NCBI GenBank assembly: GCA_963763075.1
Contig: CAVXNF010000005.1
Coordinates: 210,984 to 274,983 of the forward strand
Source of the DNA: an uncultured Chloroflexia bacterium
Lineage (GTDB): Bacteria; Chloroflexota; Limnocylindria; Limnocylindrales; CSP1-4
Length of the DNA: 64,000 nucleotides
Direction of reading: 5' to 3'
Both the position numbers and the translations under genes were made by a program. Positions 25,476-41,505 of this stretch are shown here, piece by piece; the first letter of the stretch is position 1; each line of letters begins with the position of its first letter. Under the pieces are notes generated by a model. The model was not told the origin of the DNA and ran no database searches. It saw only the letters and a program-made list of their open reading frames with translations.

Positions 25476-25523
25476 GCATGTTCGGGAGGTCGCGGGGCCG
25501 ACCGGACGGAGGGACGCAGCACG

Positions 25524-27406
25524 ATGACGATGACGAGGGGCGAGGAACCGGCGAGTCCCGCCGCGACCGCGACGCCCGCCGACGCGCCACAGCGTCGCAG
25601 CCACGTGCCGCCGACGGCACGGCGAGCGCGGCGGCGGTCGAGCAGGCGCGCAAGGCGATGCTCCACGAGGTCCGGCCGCGGAAGCGGACGCGGATCGGCG
25701 CCGACGCGCTGATGGAGGCGCTCATCCTCCAGGGCACCGACGTGCTGTGGAGCTACCCGGGCGGCGTGATCCTCCCGATCTACGACATCCTCGGCGACTA
25801 CCCCGAGATCCGGCACGTCCTCGTCCGCCACGAGCAGGGCGGCGGGCACGCGGCCGACGGCTACGCCCGCGCCAGCAACCGGGTCGGCGTGTGCATGGGC
25901 ACGAGCGGCCCGGGCGCCACGAACCTCGTCACCGCGATCGCCACGGCCCAGCTCGACTCGATCCCGATGGTCGCGATCACCGGCAACGTCCCCAACGCCC
26001 TGATCGGCAAGGACGCGTTCCAGGAGATCGACATCACCGGCATCACGCTGCCGATGACGAAGCACAACTACCTGGTCCGGAACGCCGACGACATCCCGCA
26101 CGTCGTCGCCGAGGCGTTCTACCTCGCGGCCCACGGCCGCCCGGGGCCGGTCCACATCGACATCACGAAGGACGCCCTGCAGCAGGAGACACGCGCCGAG
26201 CACCCCTCCCTCGACGACGTGATCGCCGGCGTGCCGGGCTTCCGGCCCACGACCGAGGGCCACCCGAAGCAGCTCAAGCTCGCCGCCCGCGAGATCGCCG
26301 AGGCCAAGCGCCCGCTGATCCTCGCCGGGCACGGCGTCCTCATCGCCGAGGCCTGGGACGCGCTCAAGACGTTCGCCGACAAGACCCAGATCCCCGTCGC
26401 GTGGACGCTGCTCGGCATCGGCGCGATCGACGAGGAGGATCCCCTGGCCTACGGCTACATGGGGATGCACGGCTGGAAGCACGTGAACCGCGCGATCCAG
26501 TCGGCCGACCTCCTGATCGCCATCGGGATGCGGTTCGACGACCGGGTCACCGGCAGCGTCCGGACGTACGCGCCGTACGCCCGGATCATCCACGCCGACA
26601 TCGACCCGGCCGAGATCGGCAAGAACGTCGCGGTCGAGGTGCCGATCGTCGGCGATGCGAAGAAGGTCCTCGAGGGCCTGACCCGCCTCGTCCCCGAGGT
26701 CGATCCCGCGACCCGCGCCGACTACCTCGCGCAGCTGGCCGAGTGGCGCCGCGACTCCGAGGGCTCGTCCTGGCACGGCTCCGGCGCGTGGCGCGACGGC
26801 CTGCTGTCCGCCGACTTCGTCGTCGAGCGGATCGGCGAGCTGACGAACCACATGGCGACCTACGTCGCGGACGTCGGCCAGAACCAGATGTGGCTCGCCC
26901 GGTACACGAAGTTCCGCCGGCCGCACAGCCACGTCAGCTCGGGCGGGCTCGGGACGATGGGCTACTCGGTGCCCGCGGCCATGGGCGCCGCGCTCGGCAA
27001 TCCCGACGTCGAGACCTGGGCGATCACCGGCGACGGCGGCTTCCAGATGACGAGCCAGGAGCTGATGACCCTCGCCGCGGACAACATCCCGGTGAAGATC
27101 GCGCTCCTCGACAACAAGAAGCTCGGGATGATCCGCCAGTGGCAGGAGATCATCTACGGGGGCAACTACCACTCCGCCCACCTGCCCGGGCCGGACTTCG
27201 TCAAGCTCGCCGAGGCGTACGGCGTCCCGGCGTTCAAGGCGACGAGGACCAGCGAGGTCGACGAGGTCATCCAGAAGGCACAGGCCATCGACGGGCCGGT
27301 GCTCATCTGGTTCGAGATCGCCGAGGAGCAGAACGTGTTCCCGATGATGCCGGCGGGCAAGGGCCTGTCCGACCTGATCGAGACGTGGGGGGCGCCGGAG
27401 GAATGA
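25524..27406 (+). CDS. ilvB: Acetolactate synthase large subunit (possible 1-nt frameshift in the N-terminal 120 nt)
   Basis: ThDP enzyme: GADALMEALILQGTDVLWSYPGGVILPIYD...; GDG motif ITGDGGFQMTSQELMT; ATG 25524 has a GGAGGG SD but lies in a different frame from the conserved body (alternative in-frame ATG at 25661). Confidence 0.85.
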
Positions 27407-28011
27407 GCACCGACGACTCGACCCCGAGCGCCAACGGCTCGGCGCCGCACCCGGCCCACTCCACGACGCCGCCCCCGCCGCGGAGCCTGCCGGGCTCGGG
27501 CGAGGCGCGCCGCCACATCCTCGTCGTCCTGGTCCTCGACCGGCCGGGCGTGCTCAACCGCGTCGCGAGCCTCATGCGCGCACGCAACTTCAACATCGAC
27601 TCGCTCGCGGTCAGCCGGACCGACAAGGACCACATCAGCCGGATGACGCTGACGCTCCACGGCGACGACGTCGCGGTCGAGCAGGCCGCGAAGCAGCTCT
27701 ACCGGCTGATCGACGTGCTCAAGGTCCAGGACGTGACCGCCGAGCAGGTCGTCGAGCACGAGCTCGCCCTGATCAAGGTCCGGGTCACCGACGCCAACCG
27801 GGTCGAGGTGATCAAGATCGTCGAGCTCTACAAGGGCTCGGTCGTCGACATCTCGACCGACGCCGTGATCGTCGAGGCCCACGGCACCGAGACGGAGATC
27901 GACGCGCTCGTCGCGCTCCTCCGCTCGTACGGCATCAAGGAGCTCGTCCGCACCGGGGCCACCGTGATGCTCCGGGGCGCGACCAGCATCGAGGAGGCGC
28001 TGAAGCTCTGA
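27403..28011 (+). CDS. ilvN: Acetolactate synthase small (regulatory) subunit
   Basis: ACT domain HILVVLVLDRPGVLNRVASLMRARNFNIDSLAVSRTD...; ATGA start/stop overlap with ilvB. Confidence 0.9.
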   Translation: MSTDDSTPSANGSAPHPAHSTTPPPPRSLPGSGEARRHILVVLVLDRPGVLNRVASLMRARNFNIDSLAVSRTDKDHISRMTLTLHGDDVAVEQAAKQLYRLIDVLKVQDVTAEQVVEHELALIKVRVTDANRVEVIKIVELYKGSVVDISTDAVIVEAHGTETEIDALVALLRSYGIKELVRTGATVMLRGATSIEEALKL

Positions 28012-28103
28012 GGCCGCGCCCCGGCCCACGGGCGACGCCCATCGCCCGCCGTCATCGAACGTTCGTCCCCGACCCCGTCATCGACTGAAAGGAACCGGAC
28101 CCT

Positions 28104-29159
28104 GTGACAGCCAAGATGTACTACGACGCCGACGCCGATCTCGCGGCGCTCGAGGGCCAGACCGTCGCCGTCATCGGGTACGGGAGCCAGGGCCACGCCC
28201 ACGCCCAGAACCTGCGTGACTCGGGCGTGCGCGTGATCGTCGGCCTCGCGGACGGCTCCAAGAGCCGCTCGATCGCCGAGGCGGCGGGCTTCGAGGTCCC
28301 GACCGTCGCCGACGCGGTGAAGCAGGCCGACGTGATCATGATCGCCGTGCCCGACACGCTCCAGAAGTCGGTCTACGACGGCGAGATCGAGCCCAACCTC
28401 CGGCCCGGGCAGCTGCTGATGTTCGCCCACGGCTTCAACATCCGGTTCGGCCGGGTCCTGCCGCCGGAGTCGATCGACGTCGGGATGGTCGCCCCCAAGG
28501 GCCCCGGCCACCTGCTGCGCAGCGTGTACGAGCAGGGCGGCGGCGTGCCGGCGCTGTTCGCGGTCGAGCAGGATCCCTCGGGCACGGGCCGGGCGCGGAC
28601 GCTCGCCTACGCGCGGGGCCTCGGCTCGACGCGGGCCGGCGTCCTCGAGACGACGTTCAAGGAGGAGACCGAGACCGACCTGTTCGGCGAGCAGGCGCTC
28701 CTGTGCGGCGGCGTCTCGGCGCTGGTCAAGGCGGCCTTCGAGACGCTCGTCGAGGCGGGCTACCAGCCCGAGCTCGCGTACTTCGAGACGATGCACGAGC
28801 TCAAGCTGATCGTGGACCTGATGTACCGCGGCGGCCTCAACTTCATGCGCTTCAGCGTGTCCGACACCGCGGAGTACGGCGACTACGTCTCCGGGCCGCG
28901 GGTCACCGAGGGCGCGAAGGCCGCGATGCAGGACGTCCTCACCGACATCCAGTCCGGGGCGTTCGCCGCCAAGTGGATCGCGGTCCAGGAGGCCGGCGGC
29001 GAGGACTTCCGCCGGCTGCGCGACCAGGACAAGAACCACCAGATCGAGCAGGTCGGCGCCGACCTGCGGGCGAAGATGCCGTTCCTCAAGCCGGTCGTCG
29101 TCGAGGCGGGCCAGGCGCAGGCGGTGACCGAGGCGGTAGCCGCGGGCGGTGAGCGATGA
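28104..29159 (+). CDS. ilvC: Ketol-acid reductoisomerase
   Basis: [41 protein letters not shown]...; AAAGGAA SD; intact. Confidence 0.92.
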
Positions 29160-30799
29160 CGTTCGAGGCCATCGCGCCCCGGTTCGGCGGGGGCGTCGCG
29201 TCGGGCCAGATCCGGATCTTCGACACGACGCTCCGTGACGGCGAGCAGGCGCCCGGCGCCGGCCTGACCGCCGCCGAGAAGCTCGAGGTCGCGCGCCAGC
29301 TCGCGCGGCTCAAGGTCGACGTCATCGAGGCGGGCTTTCCTGCCGCGTCGCCCGGCGACTTCGAGGCGGTCCGCCGGATCGCGCAGGAGACGAAGGGCGG
29401 GATCGCGGTCGCGGCGCTCGCGCGCTGCAAGGACGGCGACCCGCAGCGGGCGGTCGAGGCGATCGGGATCGCCGAGCGGCCGCACCTCCACCTGTTCATC
29501 GCCACCAGCGACATCCACCTCAAGCACAAGCTGCGCATCGACCGCGACGAGGCCCGTCGCGAGGCCGTGCGCTGGGTCAAGTGGGCCCGCGAGACGCTGG
29601 GCCGCGACGCCGAGATCGAGTTCTCCGCCGAGGACGCCTCCCGGACCGAGGACGACTTCCTGCTCGACATCTACGAGGCCGTCACCGAGGCCGGCGCCTC
29701 GACCCTCAACATCCCGGACACCGTCGGCTACGCGATCCCGTCCGAGTTCGGCGCGCTCGTCGGCCGGGTCAAGGACCGGATCGGGGACGCCGCGGTCATC
29801 TCGGTCCACTGCCACAACGACCTGGGGCTCGCGACGGCGAACACCCTCGCGGCGGTCCAGGCCGGCGCCCGCCAGGTCGAGGTCACGATCAACGGCCTCG
29901 GCGAGCGGGCCGGCAACGCCTCCCTCGAGGAGGTCGTGATGGCCCTGCGGACGCGCCCGGCGCAGTTCCCGCAGCTGGCGGCCGGCGTCCAGACCGAGCA
30001 GCTGACCCCGGCCAGCCGCCTCGTCAGCTATCTCACCGGCTTCGCGATCCAGCCCAACAAGGCGATCGTCGGCTCGAACGCGTTCGCGCACGAGTCCGGG
30101 ATCCACCAGGACGGCTACCTCAAGAACCCGCTGACCTACGAGATCATGACCCCGCAGTCGGTCGGCCTCCAGGGCAGCACCCTGTCGATCGGCAAGCTGT
30201 CCGGCCGGCGCGGCCTCCAGGGCAAGCTCCAGGAGCTGGGCGTGGACGTGGAGGGCGAGCAGCTCGACGCGATCTACCGCGCGGCGATCGCCCTCGCCGA
30301 CACGAAGAAGGAGGTCACCGACGCGGACCTGCTGGCGCTCGTCAACGAGCGCAAGAGCGACGTGCCGCGATCCGTGGAGCTCCTCGGCTGGAGTGTCAGC
30401 TCGGCGTCCGGCGGGCACTCCGTGGGCAGCGTCTCGCTCGTCGTCGCGGGCGAGGCGAAGGCTGCCAATGAGACCGGCAACGGCCCCGTCAACGCGCTGT
30501 ACAAGGCCGTGGACGAGGCGGTCCGCCCGGTCCTCCACTGGGCGCCGGTGCTCACCGAGTACGAGATCAAGGCCGTGTCCGCGGGCGAGGACGCCCAGGG
30601 GCAGGTCCTCGTGCGCTGCCGCCGCTCGTCCGACGAGGGGCCCGGGGCGCTCGTGGTCACCGGCCACGGGTTGAGCACGAACATCATCGAGGCGTCGCTC
30701 GAGGGCTACCTCACCGCGATCAACAAGCTCCACGGCGCCGAGATCAACGGCATCGAGGTCGCGTTCGTCGGCCGGCGGACCGCCGAGGAGCTGCCGTGA
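29156..30799 (+). CDS. leuA: 2-isopropylmalate synthase (short bacterial type with C-terminal LeuA-dimer regulatory domain)
   Basis: [20 protein letters not shown]...[21 protein letters not shown]...; C-terminal allosteric domain; ATGA overlap with ilvC. Confidence 0.9.
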
Positions 30800-30853
30800 C
30801 GGAGACCGGCCTCGCGCGCCGCACCGGGCACGGCCGACGGCAGCGGGCCAGCG

Positions 30854-31963
30854 GTGACCTACCGGATCGCGCTCGTCCCCGGTGACGGGGTCGGGCCGGA
30901 GGTCATCGCCGGGGCGGTCCACGTCCTCGAAGCGGTCGGTGCCCGGTTCGGGTTCGGCTTCGCGTGGCAGGAGCTCACGATCGGCGGCGCGGCGATCGAC
31001 GCGTACGGGACGGCCTGCCGGCCCGAGGACGTCGAGGCGTGCCGCGACGCCGATGCCGTGCTGCTCGGCGCGGTCGGCGGGCCGAAGTGGGACAACCCCG
31101 ACGCCACGGTCCGGCCGGAGCAGGCGCTGTTCGCGCTCCGCGGCGGGCTCGGGCTGTACGCGAACCTGCGCCCGATCACCGTCCAGCCGCAGCTCATCGA
31201 CGCCTCGCCGCTCAAGCCGGAGCTGCTCGAGGGCGTGGACTGCCTCATCCTCCGCGAGCTCACCAGCGGCCTGTACTTCGGCAAGCCGTCGGAGCAGCGC
31301 ACGACCGACGAGGGCCGGGCCGCGATCGACACGCTGTGGTACACGGAGGCGGAGATCCGCCGGATCGTGACCCTCGCGTTCGAGCTCGCCCGGACCCGCC
31401 GCAGGAAGGTCACCCAGGTCGACAAGGCGAACGTCCTCGCGACGAGCCGCCTGTGGCGCAAGGTGACCGACGAGGTCCACGCCGACTTCCCCGACGTCGA
31501 GCTGGAGCACCGGCTCGTCGACAGCGCCGCGATGACGCTCGCGAAGTGGCCGGCGGGCTTCGACGTCCTCGTGACCGAGAACCTGTTCGGCGACATCCTC
31601 TCGGACGAGGCGGCGGTCATCGCCGGCTCGCTGGGGCTGCTGCCGTCGGCGTCGCTCGGGACGCGCGAGACGGCCTACGGGCGTCACGGCCTGTACGAGC
31701 CGATCCACGGCTCGGCGCCGGACATCGCGGGCCAGGACCTCGCCAACCCGCTGGGGACGATCCTGTCCGCGGCGATGATGCTCCGCTGGTCGCTCGGCCA
31801 GCCGGAGGCCGCCGCCGCGATCGAGACGGCGGTCGACGACGCGCTCGATGCCGGCTACCGGACCCGCGACCTGCTGCCGGCCGGCGGCGCGGACGACGGT
31901 GCGCTGACGCTCGTCGGCACGAGGGAGATGGCGCGCGTGATCGGGGACCGGATCGCGATTTGA
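30854..31963 (+). CDS. leuB: 3-isopropylmalate dehydrogenase
   Basis: MTYRIALVPGDGVGPEV...NLFGDILSDEAA...GSAPDIAGQDLANP. Confidence 0.9.
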   Translation: MTYRIALVPGDGVGPEVIAGAVHVLEAVGARFGFGFAWQELTIGGAAIDAYGTACRPEDVEACRDADAVLLGAVGGPKWDNPDATVRPEQALFALRGGLGLYANLRPITVQPQLIDASPLKPELLEGVDCLILRELTSGLYFGKPSEQRTTDEGRAAIDTLWYTEAEIRRIVTLAFELARTRRRKVTQVDKANVLATSRLWRKVTDEVHADFPDVELEHRLVDSAAMTLAKWPAGFDVLVTENLFGDILSDEAAVIAGSLGLLPSASLGTRETAYGRHGLYEPIHGSAPDIAGQDLANPLGTILSAAMMLRWSLGQPEAAAAIETAVDDALDAGYRTRDLLPAGGADDGALTLVGTREMARVIGDRIAI

Positions 31964-32041
31964 CGGCCGGTGCCCGCCGCAGCGCGGGTGACCGGCCATC
32001 GCCGATCTGACGACCCGACCCCGCATGCAGGACACGCACCC

Positions 32042-33727
32042 ATGACGACCGATCCGACCGCCCCGCCCGTCATCCTCTACGACACGACCCTCCGCGACGG
32101 CACCCAGGGCGAGAACATCACGCTCTCGCTCGCGGACAAGCTGCGCGTCGCGCGGATGCTCGACGAGTACGGCTTCCCGTTCATCGAGGGCGGCTGGCCG
32201 GGCTCCAACCCGAAGGACATCGAGTTCTTCGCGGCCGCCCGGACGACGCGCTGGGAGCAGGCGAAGCTCGCCGCGTTCGGCTCCACGCGCCACCGGTCCA
32301 ACCGGCCGGAGGCGGACCCGAACCTCCAGGAGCTGGTCAAGGCCGAGACGCCGGTCGTCACGATCTTCGGCAAGTCGTGGCTGCTCCACGTGACCGAGGT
32401 CCTGGGCGCCACGCCGGCCGAGAACCTGGACATGATCGCGGACTCGGTGGGGTTCATCGTCGAGCGCGGCCGCGAGGCGGTGTACGACGCCGAGCACTTC
32501 TTCGACGGCTACAAGGCCGACCGCGACTACGCGCTGTCGACGCTCCGCGCCGCACGCCAGGCCGGCGCCCGGACGCTCGTCCTGTGCGACACCAACGGCG
32601 GCACGCTCACCGACGAGCTGGTCCGGATCGTCGGCGACGTCCGCGGCTCGCTCGAGGGCGAGCCCGATGCGCCGCCGGTCACGTGGGGCATCCACACCCA
32701 CAACGACGCCGAGCTCGCGGTCGCCAACTCGATCGCCGCGGTCCAGGCCGGCATCCGCCACGTGCAGGCGACGATCAACGGCTACGGCGAGCGGTGCGGC
32801 AACGCGAACATGGTCTCGATCCTCGCCAACCTCGCGCTCAAGACCCCGGCGCCGCTCATGCCCACCGGCGGCGGCTCGCTGGCCGACCTGACGGAGCTCA
32901 GCCGGAGCGTCGCGGAGATCGCGAACGTCGCCCCCAACGACTACCAGCCGTACGTCGGCCGGTCGGCGTTCGCGCACAAGGGCGGCGTCCACGGCGCGGC
33001 CGTGGCCAAGGTCGAGCGGAGCTACCAGCACGTCGACCCGTCGTCCGTCGGCAATGCCGGCCGGCTCGTCGTGAGCGAGCTGGGCGGCAGGGCGAACACC
33101 GAGATCCGGGCCCGCCAGCTCGGCCACGACCTGGCCGGCATCGTCGATCCCCGCGAGCTGTCGAAGATCATCAAGCAGCTCGAGCACGAGGGGCTCGCGT
33201 TCGAGGGCGCCGAGGCGAGCTTCGAGCTCCTCATCAAGCGCCAGGCGGCCGACTACGCCGCGCCGTTCCGGATCGTCGACTACACCTGTCTCGTGGAGCA
33301 GCGGTCCGGCCGCGAGCTCCTCGCCGAGGCGACGGTCAAGGTCGAGGTCGCGGGCGAGGTGCTCCACACCGCCGCCGACGGCAACGGCCCGGTCAACGCG
33401 CTCGACGGCGCGCTGCGCAAGGCGCTCCGGGCGTTCTACCCGCAGCTCGACACGGTCCACCTCGTCGACTACAAGGTCCGCATCCTCGACGGGGGGACCG
33501 CGACGGCGGCCCGGACGCGCGTCATCATCGATTCGCAGGACGGCGCGCTGACGTGGTCCACCATGGGCAGCGACACGAACATCATCGCGGCCTCGGCGCA
33601 GGCGCTCGCCGACTCGCTGGAGTACGCGATCTGGAAGTCCGGGGCCGAGCTCCGGCGGCGCGACGAGCGCCACTTCACGACGTCGAACGGGCAGCCCGCC
33701 ACGGCCGCCCCGGGAGGGCACGAATGA
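32042..33727 (+). CDS. cimA: (R)-citramalate synthase-type LeuA homolog (CimA-like)
   Basis: PVILYDTTLRDGTQGENITLSLADKLRVARMLDEYGFPFIEGGWPGSNPKDIEFF... (CimA/TIGR00977-style N-terminus); C-terminal LeuA-dimer domain; intact. Confidence 0.8.
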   Translation: MTTDPTAPPVILYDTTLRDGTQGENITLSLADKLRVARMLDEYGFPFIEGGWPGSNPKDIEFFAAARTTRWEQAKLAAFGSTRHRSNRPEADPNLQELVKAETPVVTIFGKSWLLHVTEVLGATPAENLDMIADSVGFIVERGREAVYDAEHFFDGYKADRDYALSTLRAARQAGARTLVLCDTNGGTLTDELVRIVGDVRGSLEGEPDAPPVTWGIHTHNDAELAVANSIAAVQAGIRHVQATINGYGERCGNANMVSILANLALKTPAPLMPTGGGSLADLTELSRSVAEIANVAPNDYQPYVGRSAFAHKGGVHGAAVAKVERSYQHVDPSSVGNAGRLVVSELGGRANTEIRARQLGHDLAGIVDPRELSKIIKQLEHEGLAFEGAEASFELLIKRQAADYAAPFRIVDYTCLVEQRSGRELLAEATVKVEVAGEVLHTAADGNGPVNALDGALRKALRAFYPQLDTVHLVDYKVRILDGGTATAARTRVIIDSQDGALTWSTMGSDTNIIAASAQALADSLEYAIWKSGAELRRRDERHFTTSNGQPATAAPGGHE

Positions 33728-34274
33728 CCGACGCCCCGCGCCTCGCCCCCTCGGGCTCCGACCAGGTCAGCCTCGAGCGCTGGACGGTCACGTCCGGCTC
33801 CAACGCGAGCAGCCGTGCCGCGGTCGTGCTCCAGGCCGGCAGCCACGACTGGCAGGCCTCGGCGGAGGGGACGGGCGCCGTCGACGCGCTGTTCAAGGCG
33901 ATCGACCAGGCGCTGGCGCCGATCCTCGACGGGCATCCGCGGCTCGTCGCCTACGACGTCCACGCGCTGGACGAGGGTCCGGCCGCCGAGGGACGGGTCA
34001 TCGTCCAGATCGCCCCGCCGCCGAGCGCGGCAGGGGACCGGGCGGACGGCCGGTTCACCGGCGAGGTCGCGTCGACCAACACGATCGCCGCCTCGGTCGA
34101 GGCCTACGTCGACGCGCTCAACGCGATGCTCGGCGGAGCAGTCGTGGGCCGGCGCCGCGGACGAGGCCGGGGTCGCGCCGCAGCGGCGGCCGCGGCACGG
34201 ACTCGCCCGGCCCGACGACCGAGTTCGACACCGACGCCGGCCACATCGACACGACGGAGTGGTTCAACCGCTAG
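33724..34274 (+). CDS. Standalone LeuA-allosteric (LeuA_dimer-like) domain protein, translationally coupled to cimA; at least 1 frameshift in a low-complexity linker
   Basis: DWQASAEGTGAVDALFKAIDQALAPILDGHPRLVAYDVHALDEGPAAEGRVIVQIAPP...GRFTGEVASTNTIAASVEAYVDALNAML matches the GNGPVDA...ASxxAYxxALN regulatory-domain pattern; ATGA overlap with the cimA stop; C-terminus ...EFDTDAGHIDTTEWFNR found in another frame. Confidence 0.5.
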
Positions 34275-35121
34275 GCGGCGACGGGAGCGCCACCGCCGCT
34301 TCCGCCGCCATCGACCCCGAGGCGTTCAACCGGTTCGAGGCCGAGGGCTGGGAGGCCCGCGCGGATTCGTACGGGTTCCTCGCGCCGATCACCGGGCGGG
34401 TCATCGGGGCGCTGCTGGCGGCGGTGCAGGCCGGGCCGGGCGTCCAGCTGCTGGACGTCGGGTCGGGGCCGGGCGACCTCGCGGCGGCCGCCGGCCTCCG
34501 GGGCGCGGACGCGGTGGGGATCGACGTCGCGCCGTCGATGGTCCGGCGGGCCGCGCTCGCCCACCCGACGATCCCGTTCCGGGTCGGCTCGTTCGAGGAG
34601 CTGCCCGGTGGCGCGGGGGCGTTCGACGCGGTCGTCGGCAACTTCGTCTTCAACCACGTCGGCCGGCCGGCGCATGCCCTCGCGCGAGGCGCGGCGCGTG
34701 CTGCGGCCCGGCGGGCCGGGTCGCGCTCTCGACCTGGGACGCGCCGAGCCGCAACCGCGTGCTGGGCCTCGTGCTCGACGCGGTCGTCGCCGCCGATGCG
34801 CCGCCACCGCCCGGCCTGCCCGCGGGACCGACCAACTTCCGCGACGACGACGAGCTGCGGGCGCTGTTCGAGGCCGCCGGGTTCGTCGAGGTCGGCGTCT
34901 CGCACCTCCACTTCGAGACCGCCGTCGCCGACGCGGAGACGCTGTGGCGCGGCGTCCTCGACTCCGCGGTGCGGATCCCGCCGCTCGTCACCGAGCAGCC
35001 GGCCGACGTCCAGGTCCGGATCCGTGCGGCGTTCGACGAGCTGGTCGCGGTCCACCGCCGGGAGGGCGGCACGCTCGCGATCCCGGTCGCGGTCCAGGTG
35101 ACCCAGGGCATGCGGCCGTGA
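34258..35121 (+). CDS. Class I SAM-dependent methyltransferase (type 11-like), one frameshift near 34690
   Basis: Motif I LLDVGSGPGDLA; ...FDAVVGNFVFNHV...(shift)...EARRVLRPGGRVALSTWD... Confidence 0.65.
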   Translation, partial: SGSTARRRRERHRRFRRHRPRGVQPVRGRGLGGPRGFVRVPRADHRAGHRGAAGGGAGRAGRPAAGRRVGAGRPRGGRRPPGRGRGGDRRRAVDGPAGRARPPDDPVPGRLVRGAARWRGGVRRGRRQLRLQPRRPAGACPRARRGACCGPAGRVALSTWDAPSRNRVLGLVLDAVVAADAPPPPGLPAGPTNFRDDDELRALFEAAGFVEVGVSHLHFETAVADAETLWRGVLDSAVRIPPLVTEQPADVQVRIRAAFDELVAVHRREGGTLAIPVAVQVTQGMRP

Positions 35122-35125
35122 GCGC

Positions 35126-35987
35126 GTGGCACTCCGGGTCGCGTACACCGGCGAGCCCGGCGCGTTCGCGGAAGAGGCGGTGCTCCGGTTCTTCGCCGCG
35201 CCCGAGACCGTGACCCGCGGCTCGTTCCGGGAGGTGTTCGAGGCGGTCCGCGACGGCACCGTCGACGCGGGCGTCGTGCCGGTGGAGAGCTCGCTGCTGG
35301 GGACGATCCGCGAGAACCTCGACCTGCTGTGGTCGTTCGACCTGCCGATCGCCGGCGAGGTCTCGGTTCCCGTCCGCCTCGCGCTGCTCGGCCTGCCCGG
35401 GGAGCGGCTGGAGACGGTCGAGCGCGTGTACTCGATCGCCGCCGCGCTCGCCCAGGCGGACGAGTTCCTGCGGTCGCGCCCGTGGACGATCCAGACCACG
35501 TACAACACCGCGGGCGCGGCGAAGCAGGTCGCGGAGCGCGGGGAGCGCGGCTCGGCGGCGGTGGCCTCCGCCCGCGTCGCGCCGATCTACGGCCTCGAGG
35601 TCCTGGCCGACGACATCCAGTCCGGCACGGACAACCGGACCCGGTTCGCGGTGATCTCGCGGCCGGGCGACGAGGCGCGGATCCGGGAGGCGGCGCAGGC
35701 ACGCAGCCGTCGCCGGCCCGCCGCGGACGACCCTCGTGTTCGCCGTCCGGAACGTCCCGGGCAGCCTCCACCGATCGCTGGGCGCGTTCGCGACCCGCGG
35801 GCTCAACATGTCCCGGCTCGAGTCACGGCCGTGGACGGAGCGCGGCTCGCGCTGGGAGTACCTGTTCTGGGTGGACCTCGACGCGGACCCCGCCGAGCCC
35901 GCCTGCGCGGCCGCGCTCGCCGAGCTCGCCGACGAGACCGAGATCGTCCGGATCCTCGGCACGTTCCCGAAGGCCGCCGAGGAGTAG
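35126..35987 (+). CDS. pheA: Prephenate dehydratase (PDT domain plus C-terminal ACT domain), frameshift near 35700
   Basis: RVAYTGEPGAFAEEAV...DAGVVPVESSLLGTIRENLDLL...TRFAVISRPG; ACT: LVFAVRNVPGSLHRSLGAFATRGLNMSRLESRP... Confidence 0.8.
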
Positions 35988-36047
35988 CCGGACATGGAAC
36001 GGCGGCGCGGGCCGAAGCCGCGCGCCGCCGCGCTCGTTGGTGCGATG

Positions 36048-37639
36048 CTAGAGCCGGACGAAGGCGTCCAGGATCACGTTCGGACGCGCCCCGCTGGAGG
36101 ACACGATCCGGATGACGTGCTCGCCGTACGACGAGAACCGCCGCGCGTAGACGACCACCCTGTCGCCCGCAGTCGAAGTCGGCCATGTCGACGGTCTTCC
36201 GGAGATCGCCGTCGATGTAGACCTTGACGATGCCGAGCGTCGGATCCGTGGTCATGACGAGGCCGATCGCCCGGCCGGTGAACCGGTACCGCGCGGACGA
36301 CGCCGGTCGCATCCGACATCCTGGCCGAGCCGCCGGAGAACGCGACGTCGTTGAGCGTCGTCCAGCCGGAGCTGAACGTCGCGTACGGGCTCGTCTGCTG
36401 GGCGATCCGCGGGACGGAGCGTCGGGGTCTGCGGCCCAGGGGCCCTTGTTGTTCGCCCAGTCGACGGCGCGGACCTTGTACAGGATCGATCCGCCGGTGG
36501 CCTGCGTGATCGCCGCGTAGGTCGGCTGCCCGGAGCCGAGCAGCGTCCACGAGTCACCGCCGTTGGTGGATCGCGCGATGTCGTACTTCATGACGCCGGC
36601 GCCGCCGACATCGGACGGCGGCGGCCCAGGCCAGCTTCACCGGGATCGAGGAGCCGCTCAACGGCGCCCCGACCCATGGCGTCGCCCGCGGCGTCGTCCC
36701 GCGGGGCTTCGACCGGTCGATCCGGAGGGTGGCGGCACTCTTCGTGGCCACCGCCGGGCCGCGCGGCGACACATCGCCCGTCGACGCCACGGCTTGTGCC
36801 CGCATCGTGAGCCGGAGCGTCCCGGCGGAGCAGTTGCTGACGGTCATCGACCACGCCAGGCCGCCGTTGCTGGTCGACGGCGCGCCGATCGAGCAGTGGT
36901 CCGCCGAGCCGGTCTTCGTGAAGTCGCCCGCCGTCAGCCCGGACACGGGCTTGTCGAACAGGACCTTCCAGGCGAACGAGGACGCCCGCGTCGGGCCCTG
37001 GGGGGCGACAATCGCCACGCGCGGCGTCGACCCCATGAGGGACGTGGAGCCGTAGATCGTCGTCACGAAGTCGACGTTGCCGGACGGCGTGTAGTCGGTC
37101 CAGCAGGCGCCGGTGACGCACAGGAAGCCTTCGCCCTCGCTGTACTGGTCGGGACCACCGGCCGTGCTCGCGTGCCACTTGAGGCCCGTGTTCGTGCCCC
37201 GCAGCACGACGATGGCGAGCGTGTCGACGCCCGCGGGGGCCATGGCCGGCGCGTCGAATGAGACGGGGACCGTCGACGGGCTGCCGCTGTTCGTCGAGAT
37301 GCCCGACGTGCTCACGGTCTTCGACGCGAGCACGATGCCCGAGCTCGATGCCTGGTAGCCGGACGGCGTACCGGACGGCGCCGTCCGGATCTCCACCCGG
37401 AACGTGCCCGTGTCACCGCTCGCCCGGCGGTGCATCAGCAGGTCGACCGAGACGATCGGCCCGACCGTGTCGAAGGTCTGCGCCATCGCCGGCGCGGACC
37501 AGCTCGATCCGTCCTGGTCGTTGATCAGGAGCGCAAACGCAGCCGCTCGCGCGCTGCCCGCCATCGTGGCCAGCAGCATCGTCGCGGCCATCAAGCTCGC
37601 CAGCGCGCGTCGCCGGCCGTTCCCCGTGCGTGTCGGCAC
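36048..37639 (-). CDS. Secreted hypothetical protein with Sec signal peptide and BNR/Asp-box motif (STNGGDSW); about 3 frameshifts
   Basis: Signal peptide RTGNGRRRALASLMAATMLLATMAGSARA|AA; Asp-box ARSTNGGDSWTLL; beta-rich C-terminal domain ...RYRFTGRAIGLVMTTDPTLGIVKVYIDGDLRKTVDMADFDCGDRVVVYARRFSSYGEHVIRIVSS; GGAGGG SD. Confidence 0.55.
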
Positions 37640-37735
37640 GTTTCCCTCCAAGTGCGGCCCTGCGTTTCCCGCCTGACAGGCGCTCGGGCGGTGCGATCAT
37701 AGGCAGTCGGGACCCCCGATGACCAGCCGCTGGAG

Positions 37736-39419
37736 GTGAAGGTGGACGACGCGTTCCGCACGGAGATGGCCGCGGGCTACACGTTCGACGAGCCCGTCGT
37801 CGTGTTCGGCTCGCCGATCCAGGGCGACGAGGTCCTGTCCGAGGTCCGCGTCCAGGTGCCGCTGTCGCGCGTCAACCGCCACGGGCTCATCGCGGGTGCG
37901 ACCGGCACCGGCAAGACGAAGACCCTGCAGCTCCTCGCCGGCCAGCTGAGCGCGCACGGGGTCCCCGTGTTCGCCGTCGACGTGAAGGGCGACCTGTCGG
38001 GCGTCGGCGCGCCCGGCGACCCCGCCAACCCGGCGGTCGTGAGCCGGGTCGAGTCGATGAAGCTCACCTACGAGCCCCAGGGCCACCCGATCGAGATCCT
38101 GTCGCTCTCGGGGACCCAGGGCGCGCACGTGCGGGCGAGCGTCTCGTCGTTCGGGCCGCTGCTGCTGGGCAAGGTCCTCGACCTCAACGACACCCAGACC
38201 TCGATCCTGTCGCTCGTCTTCCGCTACTGCGACGACGAGGACCTGCCGCTGCTCGACCTCGCGGACCTGCGGACGACGCTCAAGTTCCTCGGCTCGGACG
38301 AGGGCAAGCCGGTGCTCGAGGAGCTGGGCGGCATCGCGCCGGCGAGCCTCGGGGTCATCCTGCGCGCGATCGTCACCCTCGAGCAGGAGGGTGCCGGCGA
38401 CTTCTTCGGCGAGCCCGAGTTCGATCCCGACGACCTCGTCCGCACGACCGCGGACGGCAAGGGGATCATCACGCTGCTCGAGGTCGCGGACGTCATGGAC
38501 CGCCCGCGGCTGTACTCGACGTTCGTGCTGTGGATGCTCGCCCAGCTGTACGAGACGCTGCCCGAGGTGGGCGACCTCCCGAAGCCCAAGCTCGCGTTCT
38601 TCTTCGACGAGGCGCACCTCCTGTTCGCGGATGCGTCGAAGCCGCTGATGGAGCAGATCGAGCGCACCGCGCGGCTCATCCGGTCCAAGGGCGTCGGCGT
38701 GTACTTCGTGACCCAGGCGCCGACCGACGTGCCCTCGTCCGTGCTGAGCCAGCTCGGCAACCGCGTCCAGCACGCGCTCCGCGCGTTCACGCCCGACGAC
38801 GCCGACGCGCTGCGCAAGACCGCGCCGGACGTTCCCCGTCACCACCCACTACGACGTGGAGCGGACGATCACCTCGCTGGGCATCGGCGAGGCGCTCGTG
38901 ACCGTCCTGTCGCCCAAGGGCATCCCGACCCCGCTCGCGGCGACCCGGCTCGTGCCGCCCGACTCGCGGATGGCGCCGCTCACCGCCGAGGAGCTCGCCG
39001 CGAACGTCGCCGCGTCGACGCTGGCCGGCCGCTACAACCAGTCGCTCGATCCCGAGAGCGCGCACGAGATCATCACCGCGCGGCTCGCGAACGCGAAGGC
39101 CGCCGCCGCGACGGCCGCGGTCGAGGCGACGATGCGCGACGGCGTGTCGCCGACGACCGCCGACGGGCTCGAGACGATGACGCCGGCGCAGCAGAAGCGC
39201 GAGATCGAGAAGCGGGCGAAGGAGCTGGCGGCCGCGCAGCGGGCCGCGGAGCGCGAGCGCAAGGCCCAGGTGAAGGCGGCGCAGGAGGCCGAGAAGCAGC
39301 GCCAGCGGATGCTCGAGACGTCGATCCGGACGGCGGGCAGGGTCGCGACATCGAAGGCCGGCCAGTCGATCCTGCGCGGGGTGTTCGACGTGTTCTTCGG
39401 GGGCGGCAAGAGCCGCTGA
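37736..39419 (+). CDS. DUF853-family HerA/FtsK-like P-loop ATPase (YjgR-like), one frameshift near 38830
   Basis: Walker A GATGTGKTKTLQLLAG; Walker B ...LAFFFDEAHLLF; lysine/alanine-rich coiled-coil C-terminus. Confidence 0.7.
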
Positions 39420-39503
39420 GCGCGCGCGTGCCGGTGCGTGCGGGCGACGCATCGTGTCGGAGACGGGTGACGCCGCGTGCGCCGATCTGTCAGCATCCCG
39501 GCC

Positions 39504-39765
39504 ATGGACCTCACGTTTGTCGGCTGGATCGTCGTCGGCCTCATCGCCGGCCTGTTCTCCGGTGTCGCTCGTCGGCGGCCGGACGGCCCGCGGCTGGATG
39601 CCCAGCCTCGTCATCGGCGTCGTCTCGGCGTTCCTCGTCGGCTGGCTGCTGACGTCGTTCCTGGGCGTGGACTCGATCACGAGCATCTGGCTCTCGGCGC
39701 TGTTCGCGGCCGGGATCGCGACCGTGCTCCGGCTGCTGCTCAAGTCGTTCTCGTTCAGCGACTGA
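39504..39765 (+). CDS. GlsB/YeaQ/YmgE-family small membrane protein, one frameshift
   Basis: MDLTFVGWIVVGLIAGLFSGV...(shift)...GGRTARGWMPSLVIGVVSAFLVGWLLTSFLGVDSITSIWLSALFAAGIATVLRLLLK. Confidence 0.65.
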
Positions 39766-39813
39766 GCCCCGCCGGGCGGCGCCGCCTTGCCGCCACGCGC
39801 TAGCCTTGCGCCC

Positions 39814-40342
39814 ATGACGCAGGGTGAGTTCGCGGCGCGCACGCTGATCGGCGAGTCGTTCGCGGGTAGCGGCGCCAACGCCGCGCACATCAACATCGTG
39901 ATCGGGCGCAAGGGCGGGCCCGTCGAGACGGCCTGGACGACGTCGCTCGCGACGCCGCGCGCCGGCCACATCCCGTTCCTCACGGTCCTCCGGCCGAACC
40001 TGCCCGTGAAGCCGATGACGCTGTTCGTCAACAAGGCGGACCTGCGCGGCGACACCCACTCGCAGCTCACCTGGGGTCCCGCGCAGGCGGGCGTCGCCGC
40101 CGGCGTCACGCAGGCCGTGGCGGACGGCGCTGATCCCGGCCGACGCGGTGGACGACGTGCTCGCGATCGTCGCGGTGTGGGTCGACTGGGCGGCGGACGA
40201 CGCCGCGCTGGTGTTCGCGAACAACAAGGTCGCGACCCACGAGGCGATCGCGGCCGCGGTCCGCCTGGAGCCCAGGATCGAGGACGTGCGTGGCCGAGGT
40301 CGGGCACCCGTGGAACGCCTCGTACCACGAGCACCGGAACTA
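39814..40342 (+). CDS. fae: Formaldehyde-activating enzyme (Fae) family homolog, 1-2 frameshifts
   Basis: Alignable by eye to Methylorubrum Fae as I recall it (not checked here): IGESFAGSGANAAHINIVIGRKGGPVETAW / FLTVLRPNLPVKPMTLFVNKA / WGPAQAGVAAGVTQAVADG(L)IPADAVDDVLAIVAVWVDWAADDAALVFANN. Confidence 0.7.
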
Positions 40343-40392
40343 GCCGGGCGCACCGCGTCCGCGACCTAGCCGCCGAACCCGCCCTCCCGGCC

Positions 40393-41505
40393 ATGCAGAT
40401 CACCCGGATCCGGATCGCCCGCCTCGAGCACCCGCTCGATCCGCCGTTCGACGCCGCATGGGATCCCGTGCCGCGGACGTCCTTCGCGGCGACGCTGGTC
40501 GAGGTCGAGACCGACGAGGGCGTGACCGGGATCGGCTCGGGCGACACGATGGACGGGTTCGCGGCGTTCGAGCACCTGTTCATCGGGCAGGACCCGCTCC
40601 GGATCGCGCGCCACGTCCGCGCGCTCGAGACGATCGGCTTCCACGCCGGCCGGTACTGGCCGCTCGAGGCCGCCCTGTGGGATCTCGCGGGCAAGGTGAC
40701 CGGCCAGCCGGTCGCGGTCCTGTTCGGCGGCGCGACCGATGCGCTGCCCGCGTATGCCTCGACCGGGGAGCGGCGCCCACCGGCCGAGCGGGCGGCCTCC
40801 GCCGTCGCGATCGCCGACGCCGGGTTCCGGGCGATGAAGATCCGGATCGACCGCACCCGGATCGACGAGGGGCTCGAGACCGTCCGCGCGGTGCGGGACG
40901 CCGTCGGCGACCGGCTCGAGCTCATGGTCGACCTCAACGCCGGCTGGCGGATGGCCGGCGACACGACGCCGTCGCTCGACGTGGTGGCGGCGCGCCGCGC
41001 GGCCGACGCCCTCGCCGAGCTCGGCGTCCTGTGGCTCGAGGAGCCGCTCGACGGCGCCGACCTGCGAGGTCACGCCGCGCTCCGGGCGGGCGCCCGGATC
41101 CGGATCGCGGGCGGCGAGATGACCCGCACGATGGCGGAGCTGCTCGCCGCGCTCGACGCGGACGCGTTCGACGTCTACCAGCCGGACGTGGTGCTCGCGG
41201 TCGGGATGCTCCGGGCGCGGACGATCGGCGAGCTCGCCCTGGCGCGGAACCGCTGGTTCACGCCGCACACCTGGACCAACGGGATCGGGCTGCTGGCGAA
41301 CCTCCACGTCGCGGCGGGCGTCGGCGGCGGTCCGTACCTCGAGGTCCCGTACGACCCGCCCGGCTGGACGCCCGAGCGACGGGACTTCGTGCTCGCCGCG
41401 CCCGTCGCGGTGGGGCCCGACGGGATGCTGCGGGTGCCGCCGGTGCCGGGCCTCGGCATCGAGCTGTCCCGCGAGGCTCGCGCCGCGCTCGACGCCACGC
41501 GCTAG
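40393..41505 (+). CDS. Mandelate racemase/muconate lactonizing enzyme (enolase superfamily) protein
   Basis: N-terminal capping domain followed by a barrel domain with metal ligands (..MVDLNAGW.., ..WLEEPL.., ..DVYQPDV..); intact. Confidence 0.75.
   Translation: MQITRIRIARLEHPLDPPFDAAWDPVPRTSFAATLVEVETDEGVTGIGSGDTMDGFAAFEHLFIGQDPLRIARHVRALETIGFHAGRYWPLEAALWDLAGKVTGQPVAVLFGGATDALPAYASTGERRPPAERAASAVAIADAGFRAMKIRIDRTRIDEGLETVRAVRDAVGDRLELMVDLNAGWRMAGDTTPSLDVVAARRAADALAELGVLWLEEPLDGADLRGHAALRAGARIRIAGGEMTRTMAELLAALDADAFDVYQPDVVLAVGMLRARTIGELALARNRWFTPHTWTNGIGLLANLHVAAGVGGGPYLEVPYDPPGWTPERRDFVLAAPVAVGPDGMLRVPPVPGLGIELSREARAALDATR

What the first reader, a model, noticed from the sequence alone, without database searches (positions are those of the whole stretch)
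33724..34274. Standalone LeuA allosteric-domain ORF translationally coupled to cimA
Directly overlapping the cimA stop (ATGA) is an ORF whose only recognisable content is a LeuA_dimer-type regulatory domain. Both leuA and cimA already carry their own copy of this domain. A free-standing copy could act in trans on the leucine/citramalate synthases or be a remnant of a gene fission; either way it is an unusual arrangement.
Basis: seen in the sequence. Interest (0 to 1): 0.55.

Follow-up and report, generated by a model that had tools for sequence, protein, structure and literature searches.

The report
Free-standing LeuA-type amino-acid sensor after cimA
Right after the citramalate synthase gene sits a real, conserved small gene that consists only of the amino-acid-sensing domain normally built into leucine and isoleucine pathway enzymes, plus a conserved tail; nobody has studied it, and this copy looks broken only because of two probable sequencing errors.

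Summary
An ATG at 33724 overlaps the cimA stop (ATGA), and the reading frame encodes a LeuA_dimer (PF08502) domain (E=2.5e-23). cimA and leuA are complete and each keeps its own copy.

Reaching the TAG at 34272-34274 needs two +1 frame corrections. Both are single-base insertions (C34134, G~34175). Both are absent from two close relatives (93.5% and 96.9% DNA identity), which encode an intact 182-aa protein. Neighbouring genes carry similar private insertions, so assembly error is the likeliest cause.

The repaired protein belongs to a family of more than 1,300 standalone proteins of about 175-190 aa. Nearly all come from Candidatus Limnocylindria (Chloroflexota). In every locus examined the gene ends the ilvBNC-leuA-leuB-cimA operon. 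In 59 of 61 intact loci it is translationally coupled to cimA.

The family has the full 2x(beta-beta-beta-alpha) allosteric fold and invariant motifs at the effector site. It also has a variable Arg-rich linker and a conserved tail (...IDTTEWFNR) under purifying selection.

Best reading: a dimeric branched-chain amino-acid sensor acting in trans on CimA or another pathway enzyme. It is neither a cimA fragment nor a decaying remnant. The function is untested and I found no literature on it.

The parts
25478..27406 (+). ilvB, acetolactate synthase large subunit (first gene of the operon string; the true start may lie downstream of 25478)
   Evidence: Pfam TPP_enzyme_N, TPP_enzyme_M and TPP_enzyme_C all match.
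27403..28011 (+). ilvN, acetolactate synthase small (ACT) regulatory subunit; its start overlaps the ilvB stop by 4 nt
   Evidence: Pfam ACT_AHAS_ss and ALS_ss_C match. Coordinates were derived from the ORF end given.
28104..29159 (+). ilvC, ketol-acid reductoisomerase
   Evidence: Pfam KARI_N and KARI_C match.
29156..30799 (+). leuA, 2-isopropylmalate synthase with its own LeuA_dimer domain (residues 386-525)
   Evidence: NF002086 scores 646 bits against a cutoff of 532. Pfam HMGL-like, HCS_D2 and LeuA_dimer match.
30796..31963 (+). leuB, 3-isopropylmalate dehydrogenase. The 5' end is disturbed by a private 1-nt insertion at about 30816, so the mechanical ORF starts at 30854.
   Evidence: Pfam Iso_dh matches at 432 bits. 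The insertion is seen against both L001 and L003. In L001 leuB overlaps the leuA stop.
32042..33727 (+). cimA, (R)-citramalate synthase, complete, with its own LeuA_dimer domain. The longest ORF starts at 31970; orthologues start at the Met corresponding to 32042.
   Evidence: TIGR00977 scores 636 bits against a cutoff of 450. Pfam domains match. The L001 orthologue is 561 aa.
33724..34274 (+). Standalone LeuA-type allosteric-domain gene ('LD'). It encodes 182 aa once two inserted bases are removed. The start overlaps the cimA stop (ATGA).
   Evidence: Supported.
33766..34144 (+). The LeuA_dimer fold of LD, residues about 15-140. It has two beta-beta-beta-alpha units with invariant GxGAVDA (residues 49-55) and S-x-N..AAS (117-124) motifs at the helix N-termini.
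   Evidence: Pfam match, alignment invariants, AF2 model, Foldseek hits to 3FIG and 3F6H.
34134..34134 (+). Private 1-nt insertion (C) causing the first +1 frameshift in LD
   Evidence: It is absent from L001 and L003.
34175..34175 (+). Private 1-nt insertion (G; exact base ambiguous within 34169-34176) causing the second +1 frameshift in LD
   Evidence: It is absent from L001 and L003.
34218..34271 (+). Conserved C-terminal tail of LD (residues 165-182). The consensus is A-E-[FLY]-D-[ED]-[ED]-A-x-x-I-D-T-T-[ED]-W-F-N-[RQH].
   Evidence: W179, F180 and T177 are identical in 64 of 64 orthologues. dN/dS is 0.37 here against 0.58 in the linker. AF2 pLDDT is below 50, so the tail is predicted disordered when the protein is alone.
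34259..35121 (+). Class I SAM-dependent methyltransferase. It overlaps the LD 3' end by 16 nt and is broken in the window by private insertions at 34681 and 34713. It is present in only a subset of related loci.
35126..35987 (+). pheA, prephenate dehydratase (PDT plus ACT), broken in the window by a private insertion at 35700

Best explanation
The ORF is a genuine, conserved gene, named LD here. It is the last dedicated member of the ilvB-ilvN-ilvC-leuA-leuB-cimA branched-chain amino-acid operon of Candidatus Limnocylindria.

**What it encodes.** The product is about 180 aa and has three parts:
- a complete LeuA/CimA-type allosteric domain;
- a variable Arg-rich linker;
- a conserved acidic-aromatic C-terminal motif (...IDTTEWFNR).

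**Shown here.**
- The domain identity and fold.
- Invariance of the two helix-N-terminal motifs, which in M. tuberculosis LeuA cradle the carboxylate of bound leucine.
- Purifying selection on both the domain and the tail.
- Strict synteny with cimA.
- Conserved translational coupling to cimA, either a 4-nt ATGA/GTGA overlap or a GGAGG inside the last cimA codons followed by a 2-6 nt gap.

**Inferred.**
- Like the excised regulatory domain of Leptospira citramalate synthase, LD forms a homodimer, possibly stacking into tetramers.
- It binds a branched-chain amino acid at the dimer interface.
- It uses its tail, which is disordered when alone, to dock on a partner made in equal amounts. CimA is the most likely partner.
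- In doing so it adds or modifies feedback control of the citramalate route to isoleucine. The closest analogy is IlvN acting on IlvB.

**The damage in this window.** The two +1 frameshifts are single-base insertions private to this assembly and are most likely sequencing or assembly errors, not gene decay.
For: **Domain and fold.**
- PF08502 matches at E=2.5e-23.
- The AF2 core has pLDDT 80-95 with a 2x beta-beta-beta-alpha layout.
- The only significant Foldseek PDB hits are the M. tuberculosis LeuA structures 3FIG, 3HPS and 1SR9 and the Leptospira citramalate synthase regulatory domains 3F6G and 3F6H, at E=2e-5 to 3e-4.

**Family size.**
- More than 1,300 homologues were found. All 120 best hits are 171-196 aa and PF08502-only.
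- 255 loci were found in the genome collection scanned, which holds one genome per species.

**Synteny.** cimA lies immediately upstream in all 80 genome-collection loci. ilvC-leuA-leuB is found upstream wherever the flank reaches far enough.

**Coupling.** Of 61 loci with intact cimA and LD, 39 have the 4-nt overlap. Another 20 have a 2-6 nt gap after a GGAGG-containing cimA 3' end.

**A divergent subfamily stays in the same operon.** Its tail reads ...LYNx or MFNH, and its members are 30-40% identical to the divergent query. Its gene order is cimA-(ilvE)-LD, and the genes downstream are unrelated.

**Effector-site motifs.**
- G49, G51, A52-L56 and S117, N119, A122-S124 are invariant in 26 diverse members.
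- They sit exactly at the N-termini of helices 52-68 and 120-136 of the model.
- Leucine's carboxylate binds between two helix N-termini in M. tuberculosis LeuA (PMC11057210).

**Selection.** dN/dS is 0.30 for the domain, 0.37 for the tail, 0.58 for the linker and 0.87 for the N-terminus.

**Precedent for an autonomous domain.** The excised CimA regulatory domain folds on its own, forms dimers and tetramers, and binds Ile specifically (PMC13381585).

**Frameshifts as errors.**
- Both insertions are absent from L001 (an Illumina-type assembly) and from L003.
- The same comparisons show further private 1-nt C/G insertions at 30816, 34681, 34713 and 35700, and many more from 36170 onward. These break leuB's 5' end, a methyltransferase, pheA and other genes.
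Against: - No ligand, oligomeric state or partner has been measured for any member of the family.
- All the usual checkpoints already have their own sensors: LeuA and CimA carry allosteric domains, and IlvB has IlvN. The need for an extra sensor is therefore not obvious.
- No recurrent CimA-LD fusion exists. Only N-terminally truncated singleton merged ORFs were found.
- The conserved CimA C-terminal motif (RRRDERHFTT) does not track the LD tail type. Nothing therefore points specifically to CimA beyond gene order and coupling.
- In the divergent subfamily ilvE intervenes and the start is not overlapped.
- The tail is low-confidence in the monomer model. That fits a docking motif but does not prove one.
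- The paired CimA+LD structure prediction could not be run.
- The error explanation for the frameshifts was not checked against reads.
Confidence: 0.6

Rival explanations
1. **Hetero-oligomer modulator or decoy.** LD has no enzyme-docking role. Instead its allosteric domain pairs or stacks with the allosteric domains of full-length CimA or LeuA. That would change their effector response, for example by relieving or retuning feedback inhibition. Stand-alone RAM-domain proteins do this with full-length Lrp-type regulators.
For: - Allosteric domains of this type dimerise, and the excised CimA domain also forms tetramers (PMC13381585).
- The stand-alone RAM protein DM1 forms hetero-octamers with full-length FL11 (PMC2995911).
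- LD is closest to LeuA's own domain at 68 bits.
- It would be produced in equal amounts with CimA.
Against: - In LeuA and CimA the two allosteric domains of the homodimer already pair with each other, so a third partner must compete or stack.
- This reading does not explain the strongly conserved C-terminal tail.
- It has not been tested.
Confidence: 0.2
2. **Amino-acid-responsive regulator of expression.** The LD dimer binds a branched-chain amino acid and, through its Arg-rich linker, binds RNA or another non-enzyme target to control the operon, in the manner of TRAP.
For: - The linker is rich in Arg, Lys and Gly (positions 151-157).
- The gene sits at the operon's end.
- No T-box or other riboswitch or leader family was detected anywhere in the window. 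Regulation of the operon is therefore unexplained.
Against: - No nucleic-acid-binding domain was found.
- The linker is the least conserved part apart from the N-terminus, with dN/dS of 0.58.
- Tight translational coupling to an enzyme gene is more typical of subunits than of regulators.
Confidence: 0.07
3. **Pseudogene or fission remnant.** The ORF is a decaying leftover of a third synthase paralogue, or in this organism specifically a recently inactivated gene, and the two frameshifts are real.
For: - The window copy has two frameshifts.
- LD is only a domain-sized piece of a larger enzyme family.
Against: - At family level the gene is intact in 64 orthologous loci, with dN/dS of 0.3-0.37 and invariant motifs.
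- At window level both insertions are private relative to relatives at 93.5% and 96.9% identity.
- Adjacent genes, including pheA and leuB, carry the same kind of private 1-nt C/G insertion. Simultaneous decay of that many genes is very unlikely.
- Other long-read assembled genomes in the set show similarly split genes (L019, L052, L076).
Confidence: 0.08
4. **Assembly artefact.** The ORF is the displaced C-terminus of cimA.
For: It lies directly after cimA in an error-prone assembly.
Against: - cimA is full length against TIGR00977, matching profile positions 2-524 of 526, and has its own LeuA_dimer domain.
- LD is only 34% identical to that domain.
- The same two-gene arrangement is found in 80 independent genomes.
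Confidence: 0.01

Closest known systems
C-terminal allosteric (LeuA_dimer, PF08502) domain of 2-isopropylmalate synthase and citramalate synthase (M. tuberculosis LeuA 3FIG/1SR9; Leptospira citramalate synthase regulatory domain 3F6G/3F6H)
   Same: - It has the same fold and the same Pfam family.
- It shares the conserved helix-N-terminal motifs GxG(P/A)V(D/N)A and (S/D)TN(I/T)xxAS.
- It is encoded in the same operon as both synthases.
   Different: - It is a separate polypeptide with no catalytic HMGL-like or HCS_D2 domains.
- It is only about 35% identical to the host's own LeuA and CimA domains and 18-21% identical to the solved structures.
- It carries an extra Arg-rich linker and a conserved ...IDTTEWFNR tail that the enzyme-borne domains lack.
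IlvN/IlvH, the ACT-domain small regulatory subunit of acetolactate synthase
   Same: - It is a small amino-acid-binding regulatory protein.
- Its gene is encoded immediately after, and overlaps, the gene of a branched-chain pathway enzyme. In this window ilvB and ilvN also overlap by 4 nt.
- It is the model for how LD might work.
   Different: - The fold is different (ACT versus LeuA_dimer).
- IlvB has no built-in sensor, whereas CimA already has one.
- The IlvN-IlvB complex is established experimentally. No LD partner is known.
Stand-alone RAM-domain proteins of archaea (DM1, STS042)
   Same: - They are a free-standing copy of an amino-acid-binding regulatory domain that normally occurs fused to an effector domain.
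- They bind Ile, Val or Leu.
- They form hetero-oligomers with full-length paralogues.
- Their physiological role is still unclear (PMC2995911).
   Different: - The fold is unrelated.
- Their partners are transcription factors, not enzymes.
- No conserved C-terminal tail has been described for them.
Excised CimA allosteric domain used as an isoleucine biosensor module
   Same: It shows experimentally that this domain type is an autonomous, dimeric or tetrameric, amino-acid-specific binding module when separated from the enzyme (PMC13381585).
   Different: It is an engineered fragment, not a natural gene, and has no tail.

Membership tests
LeuA_dimer / LeuA allosteric domain (Pfam PF08502) | Significant match to the family HMM, above the gathering score | tested here: met
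   82.9 bits against a cutoff of 24.9, E=2.5e-23, covering profile positions 20-130 of 131. All listed homologues carry PF08502.
LeuA_dimer / LeuA allosteric domain (Pfam PF08502) | A fold made of two beta-beta-beta-alpha units | tested here: met
   The AF2 model has strands 30-38, 41-49, 73-81, 90-97 and 111-117 and helices 52-68 and 120-136. The first strand is low-confidence. Top Foldseek hits are 3FIG, 3HPS, 1SR9, 3F6G and 3F6H, with a TM-score (normalised to the target length) of up to 0.74 against 3F6H.
LeuA_dimer / LeuA allosteric domain (Pfam PF08502) | An effector (amino-acid) pocket at the dimer interface, formed by helix N-termini | tested here: inconclusive
   The motifs at both helix N-termini are invariant, consistent with the description of the leucine site in PMC11057210. 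No ligand docking, dimer model or binding measurement was possible.
LeuA_dimer / LeuA allosteric domain (Pfam PF08502) | Homodimerisation | not testable with these tools
   Only single-chain prediction is offered.
2-isopropylmalate synthase (LeuA; NF002086, TIGR00973) | A full-length equivalog score and the catalytic HMGL-like TIM barrel | tested here: not met
   59.7 bits against a cutoff of 532, and 54.2 against 598.7. Only the C-terminal 110-120 model positions match and there is no HMGL-like hit. The name '2-isopropylmalate synthase' given by JGI is therefore wrong.
Citramalate synthase (CimA; TIGR00977) | A full-length equivalog score and the catalytic domain | tested here: not met
   23.8 bits against a cutoff of 450.
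Separate regulatory subunit of a biosynthetic enzyme (functional class: IlvN-IlvB, HisZ-HisG) | The gene is adjacent to and translationally coupled with the catalytic gene across lineages | tested here: met
   cimA lies immediately upstream in 80 of 80 genome-collection loci. 59 of 61 intact loci show a 4-nt overlap or a 2-6 nt gap after an in-gene GGAGG. The exception is the divergent subfamily, where ilvE intervenes.
Separate regulatory subunit of a biosynthetic enzyme (functional class: IlvN-IlvB, HisZ-HisG) | A physical complex with the catalytic subunit and an effect on its activity | not testable with these tools

The most novel reading that the evidence does not exclude
LD is a dedicated trans-acting allosteric subunit. 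It docks through its C-terminal ...DTTxWFN motif on citramalate synthase, or on another enzyme of the shared Leu/Ile pathway. In doing so it supplies a second amino-acid input, for example Leu or Val sensing on the isoleucine branch. This would be the first heteromeric, subunit-based feedback control described in the LeuA/CimA/homocitrate synthase enzyme family, and a natural example of an allosteric domain set free to act as a portable sensor.
Probability: 0.3. Interest if true: 0.65.

Novelty: new variant of a known kind. Interest (0 to 1): 0.45.

Why it matters
Feedback control in the LeuA/CimA family is currently understood as working within one polypeptide: the sensor domain is fused to the enzyme.

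A whole bacterial class that is abundant in soil and freshwater keeps an extra, free-standing copy of that sensor. It is made in equal amounts with CimA and has its own conserved docking-like tail. This suggests an additional layer of cross-regulation between the leucine pathway and the citramalate route to isoleucine, which share LeuB and LeuCD.

The protein is small and soluble-looking. Its binding and partner hypotheses can be tested directly with recombinant protein. It could also serve as a ready-made amino-acid sensing module, as excised CimA domains already do in engineered biosensors.

On the practical side, the case shows that this window carries frequent single-base insertion errors. 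These split real genes, which matters for every other finding drawn from it.

Tried and rejected
1. **Literature.** Searches for 'LeuA_dimer', and for isopropylmalate synthase together with 'regulatory domain' and 'stand-alone', found nothing on free-standing proteins of this kind.
2. **Sequence search of solved structures.** Both the single protein and the family profile gave only a 13-bit hit to 3F6G. No close homologue has been solved.
3. **Paired CimA+LD structure prediction.** I built a natural-junction fusion alignment of 13 locus-matched pairs to see whether the tail becomes ordered beside CimA.
4. **AlphaFold-database fold search.** The library was unavailable.
5. **Rosetta-stone search.** A query of the CimA C-terminus joined to LD returned only normal 550-580 aa CimA proteins and a few N-terminally truncated singleton merged ORFs (P0388, P0405, P0403, P0161). 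I regard these as frameshift artefacts. The longer LD-containing proteins from the representative search likewise show only partial domains.
6. **Covariation of tails.** The conserved CimA C-terminal motif (RRRDERHFTT) did not track the LD tail type in any clean way.
7. **pheA as the partner.** The pheA linkage holds only in the main subfamily. The divergent subfamily is followed by thrC, dapB, asd or opposite-strand genes, so I rejected it as the general partner.
8. **'DTT' resemblance.** The 'DTT' in the tail resembles the catalytic N-terminal motif DTTLRDG of the synthases. Three residues are too few to mean anything, and the divergent subfamily lacks it.
9. **RNA and signal scans.** The Rfam scan of the whole window, and a promoter and terminator scan of 33000-36500, found nothing.
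10. **Programmed frameshifting.** I rejected it because the same kind of private insertion occurs in unrelated neighbouring genes.
Full report
**1. The observation**

The + strand around 33700 reads ...cacgaATGAccgac.... The cimA ORF ends with TGA at 33725-33727, and an ATG at 33724 overlaps it by 4 nt.

Translating from 33724 in that frame gives MTDAPRLAPSGSDQVSLERWTVTSGSN...STNTIAASVEAYVDALNAMLG. After that the frame degenerates into Arg/Gly/Ala-rich sequence and runs on to 35121. The continuation EQSWAGAADEAG is in the +1 frame, and ...GGRGTDSPGPTTEFDTDAGHIDTTEWFNR* is in the +2 frame, ending at TAG 34272-34274.

Residues 13-135 match Pfam LeuA_dimer at E=2.5e-23 (82.9 bits, cutoff 24.9). 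leuA (29156-30799) and cimA (to 33727) each have HMGL-like, HCS_D2 and their own LeuA_dimer domains. Both pass their NCBIfam equivalog cutoffs, whereas the small ORF reaches only 60 bits on LeuA models and 24 bits on the CimA model.

**2. The frameshifts**

The spliced 182-aa sequence is 91% identical over its full length to P0001, a 182-aa protein from an ENA metagenome.

The contig that encodes P0001 (L001) aligns to window 28813-38528 at 93.5% identity. A genome-collection contig (L003) aligns to 27725-35983 at 96.9%. Both encode an intact 182-aa protein.

Relative to both, the window has one extra base at 34134 (ATGCTCGG[C]GGAG) and one at about 34175. The same comparisons reveal further single C/G insertions private to the window:
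- at 30816, in the 5' end of leuB;
- at 34681 and 34713, in a methyltransferase;
- at 35700, in pheA;
- many more from 36170 onward.

Each of these splits a gene that is intact in the relatives. Other long-read assembled genomes in the fetched set show similarly fragmented hits. Two real frameshifts 41 nt apart, alongside simultaneous inactivation of pheA, leuB and others, is far less likely than insertion-type assembly error. Reads were not available to prove this.

**3. A large, clade-restricted family with fixed gene order**

The protein search returned more than 1,300 homologues. The best 120 are all 171-196 aa and carry PF08502 only. NCBI names them 'alpha-isopropylmalate synthase regulatory domain-containing protein'. 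JGI often mislabels them '2-isopropylmalate synthase'.

A scan of the genome collection (one genome per species) found 255 loci. The 80 that were fetched are almost all labelled Candidatus Limnocylindrales, Chloroflexota or 'Chloroflexia'. A few short contigs binned elsewhere are probably misassigned.

In every one of these loci the order is (ilvC)-leuA-leuB-cimA-LD, followed by pheA. In about a third of the loci a methyltransferase sits between LD and pheA. In the window the string starts with ilvB and ilvN.

Among 61 loci with both genes intact, 39 have the ATGA/GTGA 4-nt overlap seen in the window. Another 20 have cimA ending in ...GGGAGG-stop with the LD start 2-6 nt later. The remaining two are artefacts. 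No promoter-like or terminator-like site lies in 33000-36500. Translational coupling to cimA is thus a conserved feature, not an accident of this genome.

An exhaustive profile-free search of 1.84 billion cluster representatives found only 316 clusters at E<=0.001, and full-length LeuA enzymes appear only at around E=1e-6. The family is distinct from the enzyme-borne domains.

A divergent subfamily is 30-40% identical to the divergent query used to find it, and its tail ends ...L(M)xLYNx or ...MFNH. It is encoded as cimA-(ilvE)-LD with its own ribosome-binding site, and is followed by unrelated genes: thrC-thrB, dapB-dapA, asd, or genes on the opposite strand. The constant association is therefore with the ilv-leu-cimA operon. 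The association with pheA is not constant.

**4. Anatomy of the protein**

An alignment of 26 diverse members shows 63 invariant positions. These include:
- L-x-R-W-T-V-T-x-G-S in the first strand;
- G49-x-G51-A-V-D-A-L;
- Y-D-V-H-A;
- S117-x-N119-x-x-A-A-S-x-E-A-Y;
- W141;
- the C-terminal D-x-x-x-W-F-N.

The AlphaFold2 model has a mean pLDDT of 71.6, with the core at 80-95. It shows two beta-beta-beta-alpha units with helices at 52-68 and 120-136. The N-terminal 11 residues and the segments 156-167 and 170-182 fall below pLDDT 50.

Foldseek against the PDB gives significant hits only to M. tuberculosis LeuA (3FIG with leucine bound, 3HPS, 3HPZ, 1SR9) and to the isolated regulatory domain of Leptospira citramalate synthase with isoleucine (3F6G, 3F6H). 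Sequence identity to these is 18-21%. Sequence-only comparison with the PDB barely detects 3F6G.

The two invariant motifs sit at the N-termini of the two helices. [quoted passage not shown] Conservation of these motifs argues for a working effector pocket, but this is an inference.

LD is 35% identical (68 bits) to the host's LeuA domain and 34% identical (36 bits) to the CimA domain. It is an old paralogue, somewhat closer to LeuA, and not a recent copy of the neighbouring gene.

Pairwise Nei-Gojobori estimates over 64 orthologues are as follows:

| Region | dN/dS |
|---|---|
| Domain | 0.30 |
| Last 18 residues (tail) | 0.37 |
| Linker | 0.58 |
| N-terminus | 0.87 |

W179, F180 and T177 are identical in 64 of 64 sequences. 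The tail consensus is A-E-[FLY]-D-[ED]-[ED]-A-x-x-I-D-T-T-[ED]-W-F-N-[RQH]. A conserved peptide that is predicted disordered in isolation is what one expects of a docking motif.

**5. Mechanism**

Established knowledge:
- The allosteric domains of LeuA and CimA pair across the homodimer and bind the end-product amino acid at their interface (PMC9860122; PMC11057210).
- The excised CimA domain is an autonomous dimer or tetramer that binds isoleucine specifically (PMC13381585).

Given this and the anatomy above, the best-supported model is that LD is a dimeric amino-acid sensor for the branched-chain pathway, acting in trans. Conserved coupling to cimA implies production in equal amounts and makes CimA the prime candidate partner. 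The tail is the candidate contact. The closest functional analogy is IlvN with IlvB, which in this very window also overlap by 4 nt.

A serious rival is hetero-oligomerisation with the allosteric domains of CimA or LeuA. The stand-alone RAM protein DM1 does this with full-length FL11 (PMC2995911).

I could not discriminate between these two. No recurrent natural CimA-LD fusion exists. A conserved CimA C-terminal motif does not co-vary with the tail type.

A role in gene expression through the Arg-rich linker is possible but weakly supported. Decay or remnant explanations are contradicted by conservation.

**6. Comparison with what is known, and novelty**

By domain, LD is a member of PF08502. 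It fails membership of the LeuA and CimA enzyme families because it has no catalytic domain. No NCBIfam model is specific to it, and no paper in the searched library mentions free-standing proteins of this type.

Databases already record the proteins under a generic name, so the existence of the family is not new. Its clade-wide synteny, its coupling to cimA, its two tail-defined subfamilies and its likely role have not been described.

I rate it a new variant of a known kind: a known allosteric domain released as a separate, tail-bearing protein.

**7. Verdict**

The finding is real and well read by the first stage. The 'fission remnant' and 'assembly-displaced C-terminus' readings are rejected. 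The 'acts in trans' reading is the best available but unproven.

Interest is moderate (0.45). A specialist in amino-acid pathway regulation would find a conserved third allosteric domain in one operon noteworthy and easy to test, but the fold and the general logic are familiar.

Noticed in passing
window 30816, 34134, 34175, 34681, 34713, 35700, and many sites in 36170-37400 and 37700-40400: The window carries frequent single-base C/G insertions that are absent from relatives at 93.5% and 96.9% identity. They split leuB's 5' end, a methyltransferase, pheA, a 511-aa minus-strand protein and a DUF853-like gene. This looks like systematic insertion error in the assembly, and it will create false frameshifts and pseudogenes in any other finding from this window.
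   Followed up: partly
window 33640-33700 (CimA C-terminus); all type-A loci in alignment A3: Beyond its allosteric domain, CimA of these organisms carries a nearly invariant basic motif, ...AIWKSGAELRRRDERHFTT, followed by a variable tail. The motif is present in some genomes of the divergent LD subfamily and absent from others, so no link to LD could be shown.
   Followed up: partly
L083, L086, L088, L089, L090: A second, divergent LD subfamily (tails ...LYNx or ...MFNH) is encoded after cimA-ilvE, or directly after cimA (L090), with its own ribosome-binding site. It is followed by unrelated genes (thrC-thrB, dapB-dapA, asd-ask, or opposite-strand genes).
   Followed up: partly
window 34259-35121: A class I SAM-dependent methyltransferase overlaps the 3' end of LD by 16 nt and pheA by 4 nt. 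It is present in only about a third of related loci; in the rest pheA follows LD directly. Its substrate is unknown.
   Followed up: no
window 36048-37651, minus strand (L001 7228-8763): A 511-aa protein with no Pfam match lies downstream of pheA. It is heavily fragmented in the window by at least six private insertions.
   Followed up: no
L003 (CAVTBS010000003.1): The closest genome-collection relative of the window (96.9% identity) is labelled 'uncultured Gaiellaceae bacterium' (Actinomycetota). All other relatives of this operon are labelled Limnocylindrales or Chloroflexota, so the taxonomic label of that assembled genome looks wrong.
   Followed up: no
P0388, P0405, P0403, P0161, P0128, P0146 (database proteins): These are singleton 'fusion' proteins joining part of CimA to LD, or LD to part of pheA. 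All are truncated or have partial domains and occur on single contigs. They are most likely frameshift read-through artefacts of the same kind as the 914-aa ORF 32377-35121 in this window.
   Followed up: partly
window 1-64000: No Rfam family, including T-box, leader and riboswitch families, reaches its gathering score anywhere in the window. How the ilv-leu-cimA operon is regulated at the RNA level is therefore not apparent.
   Followed up: no
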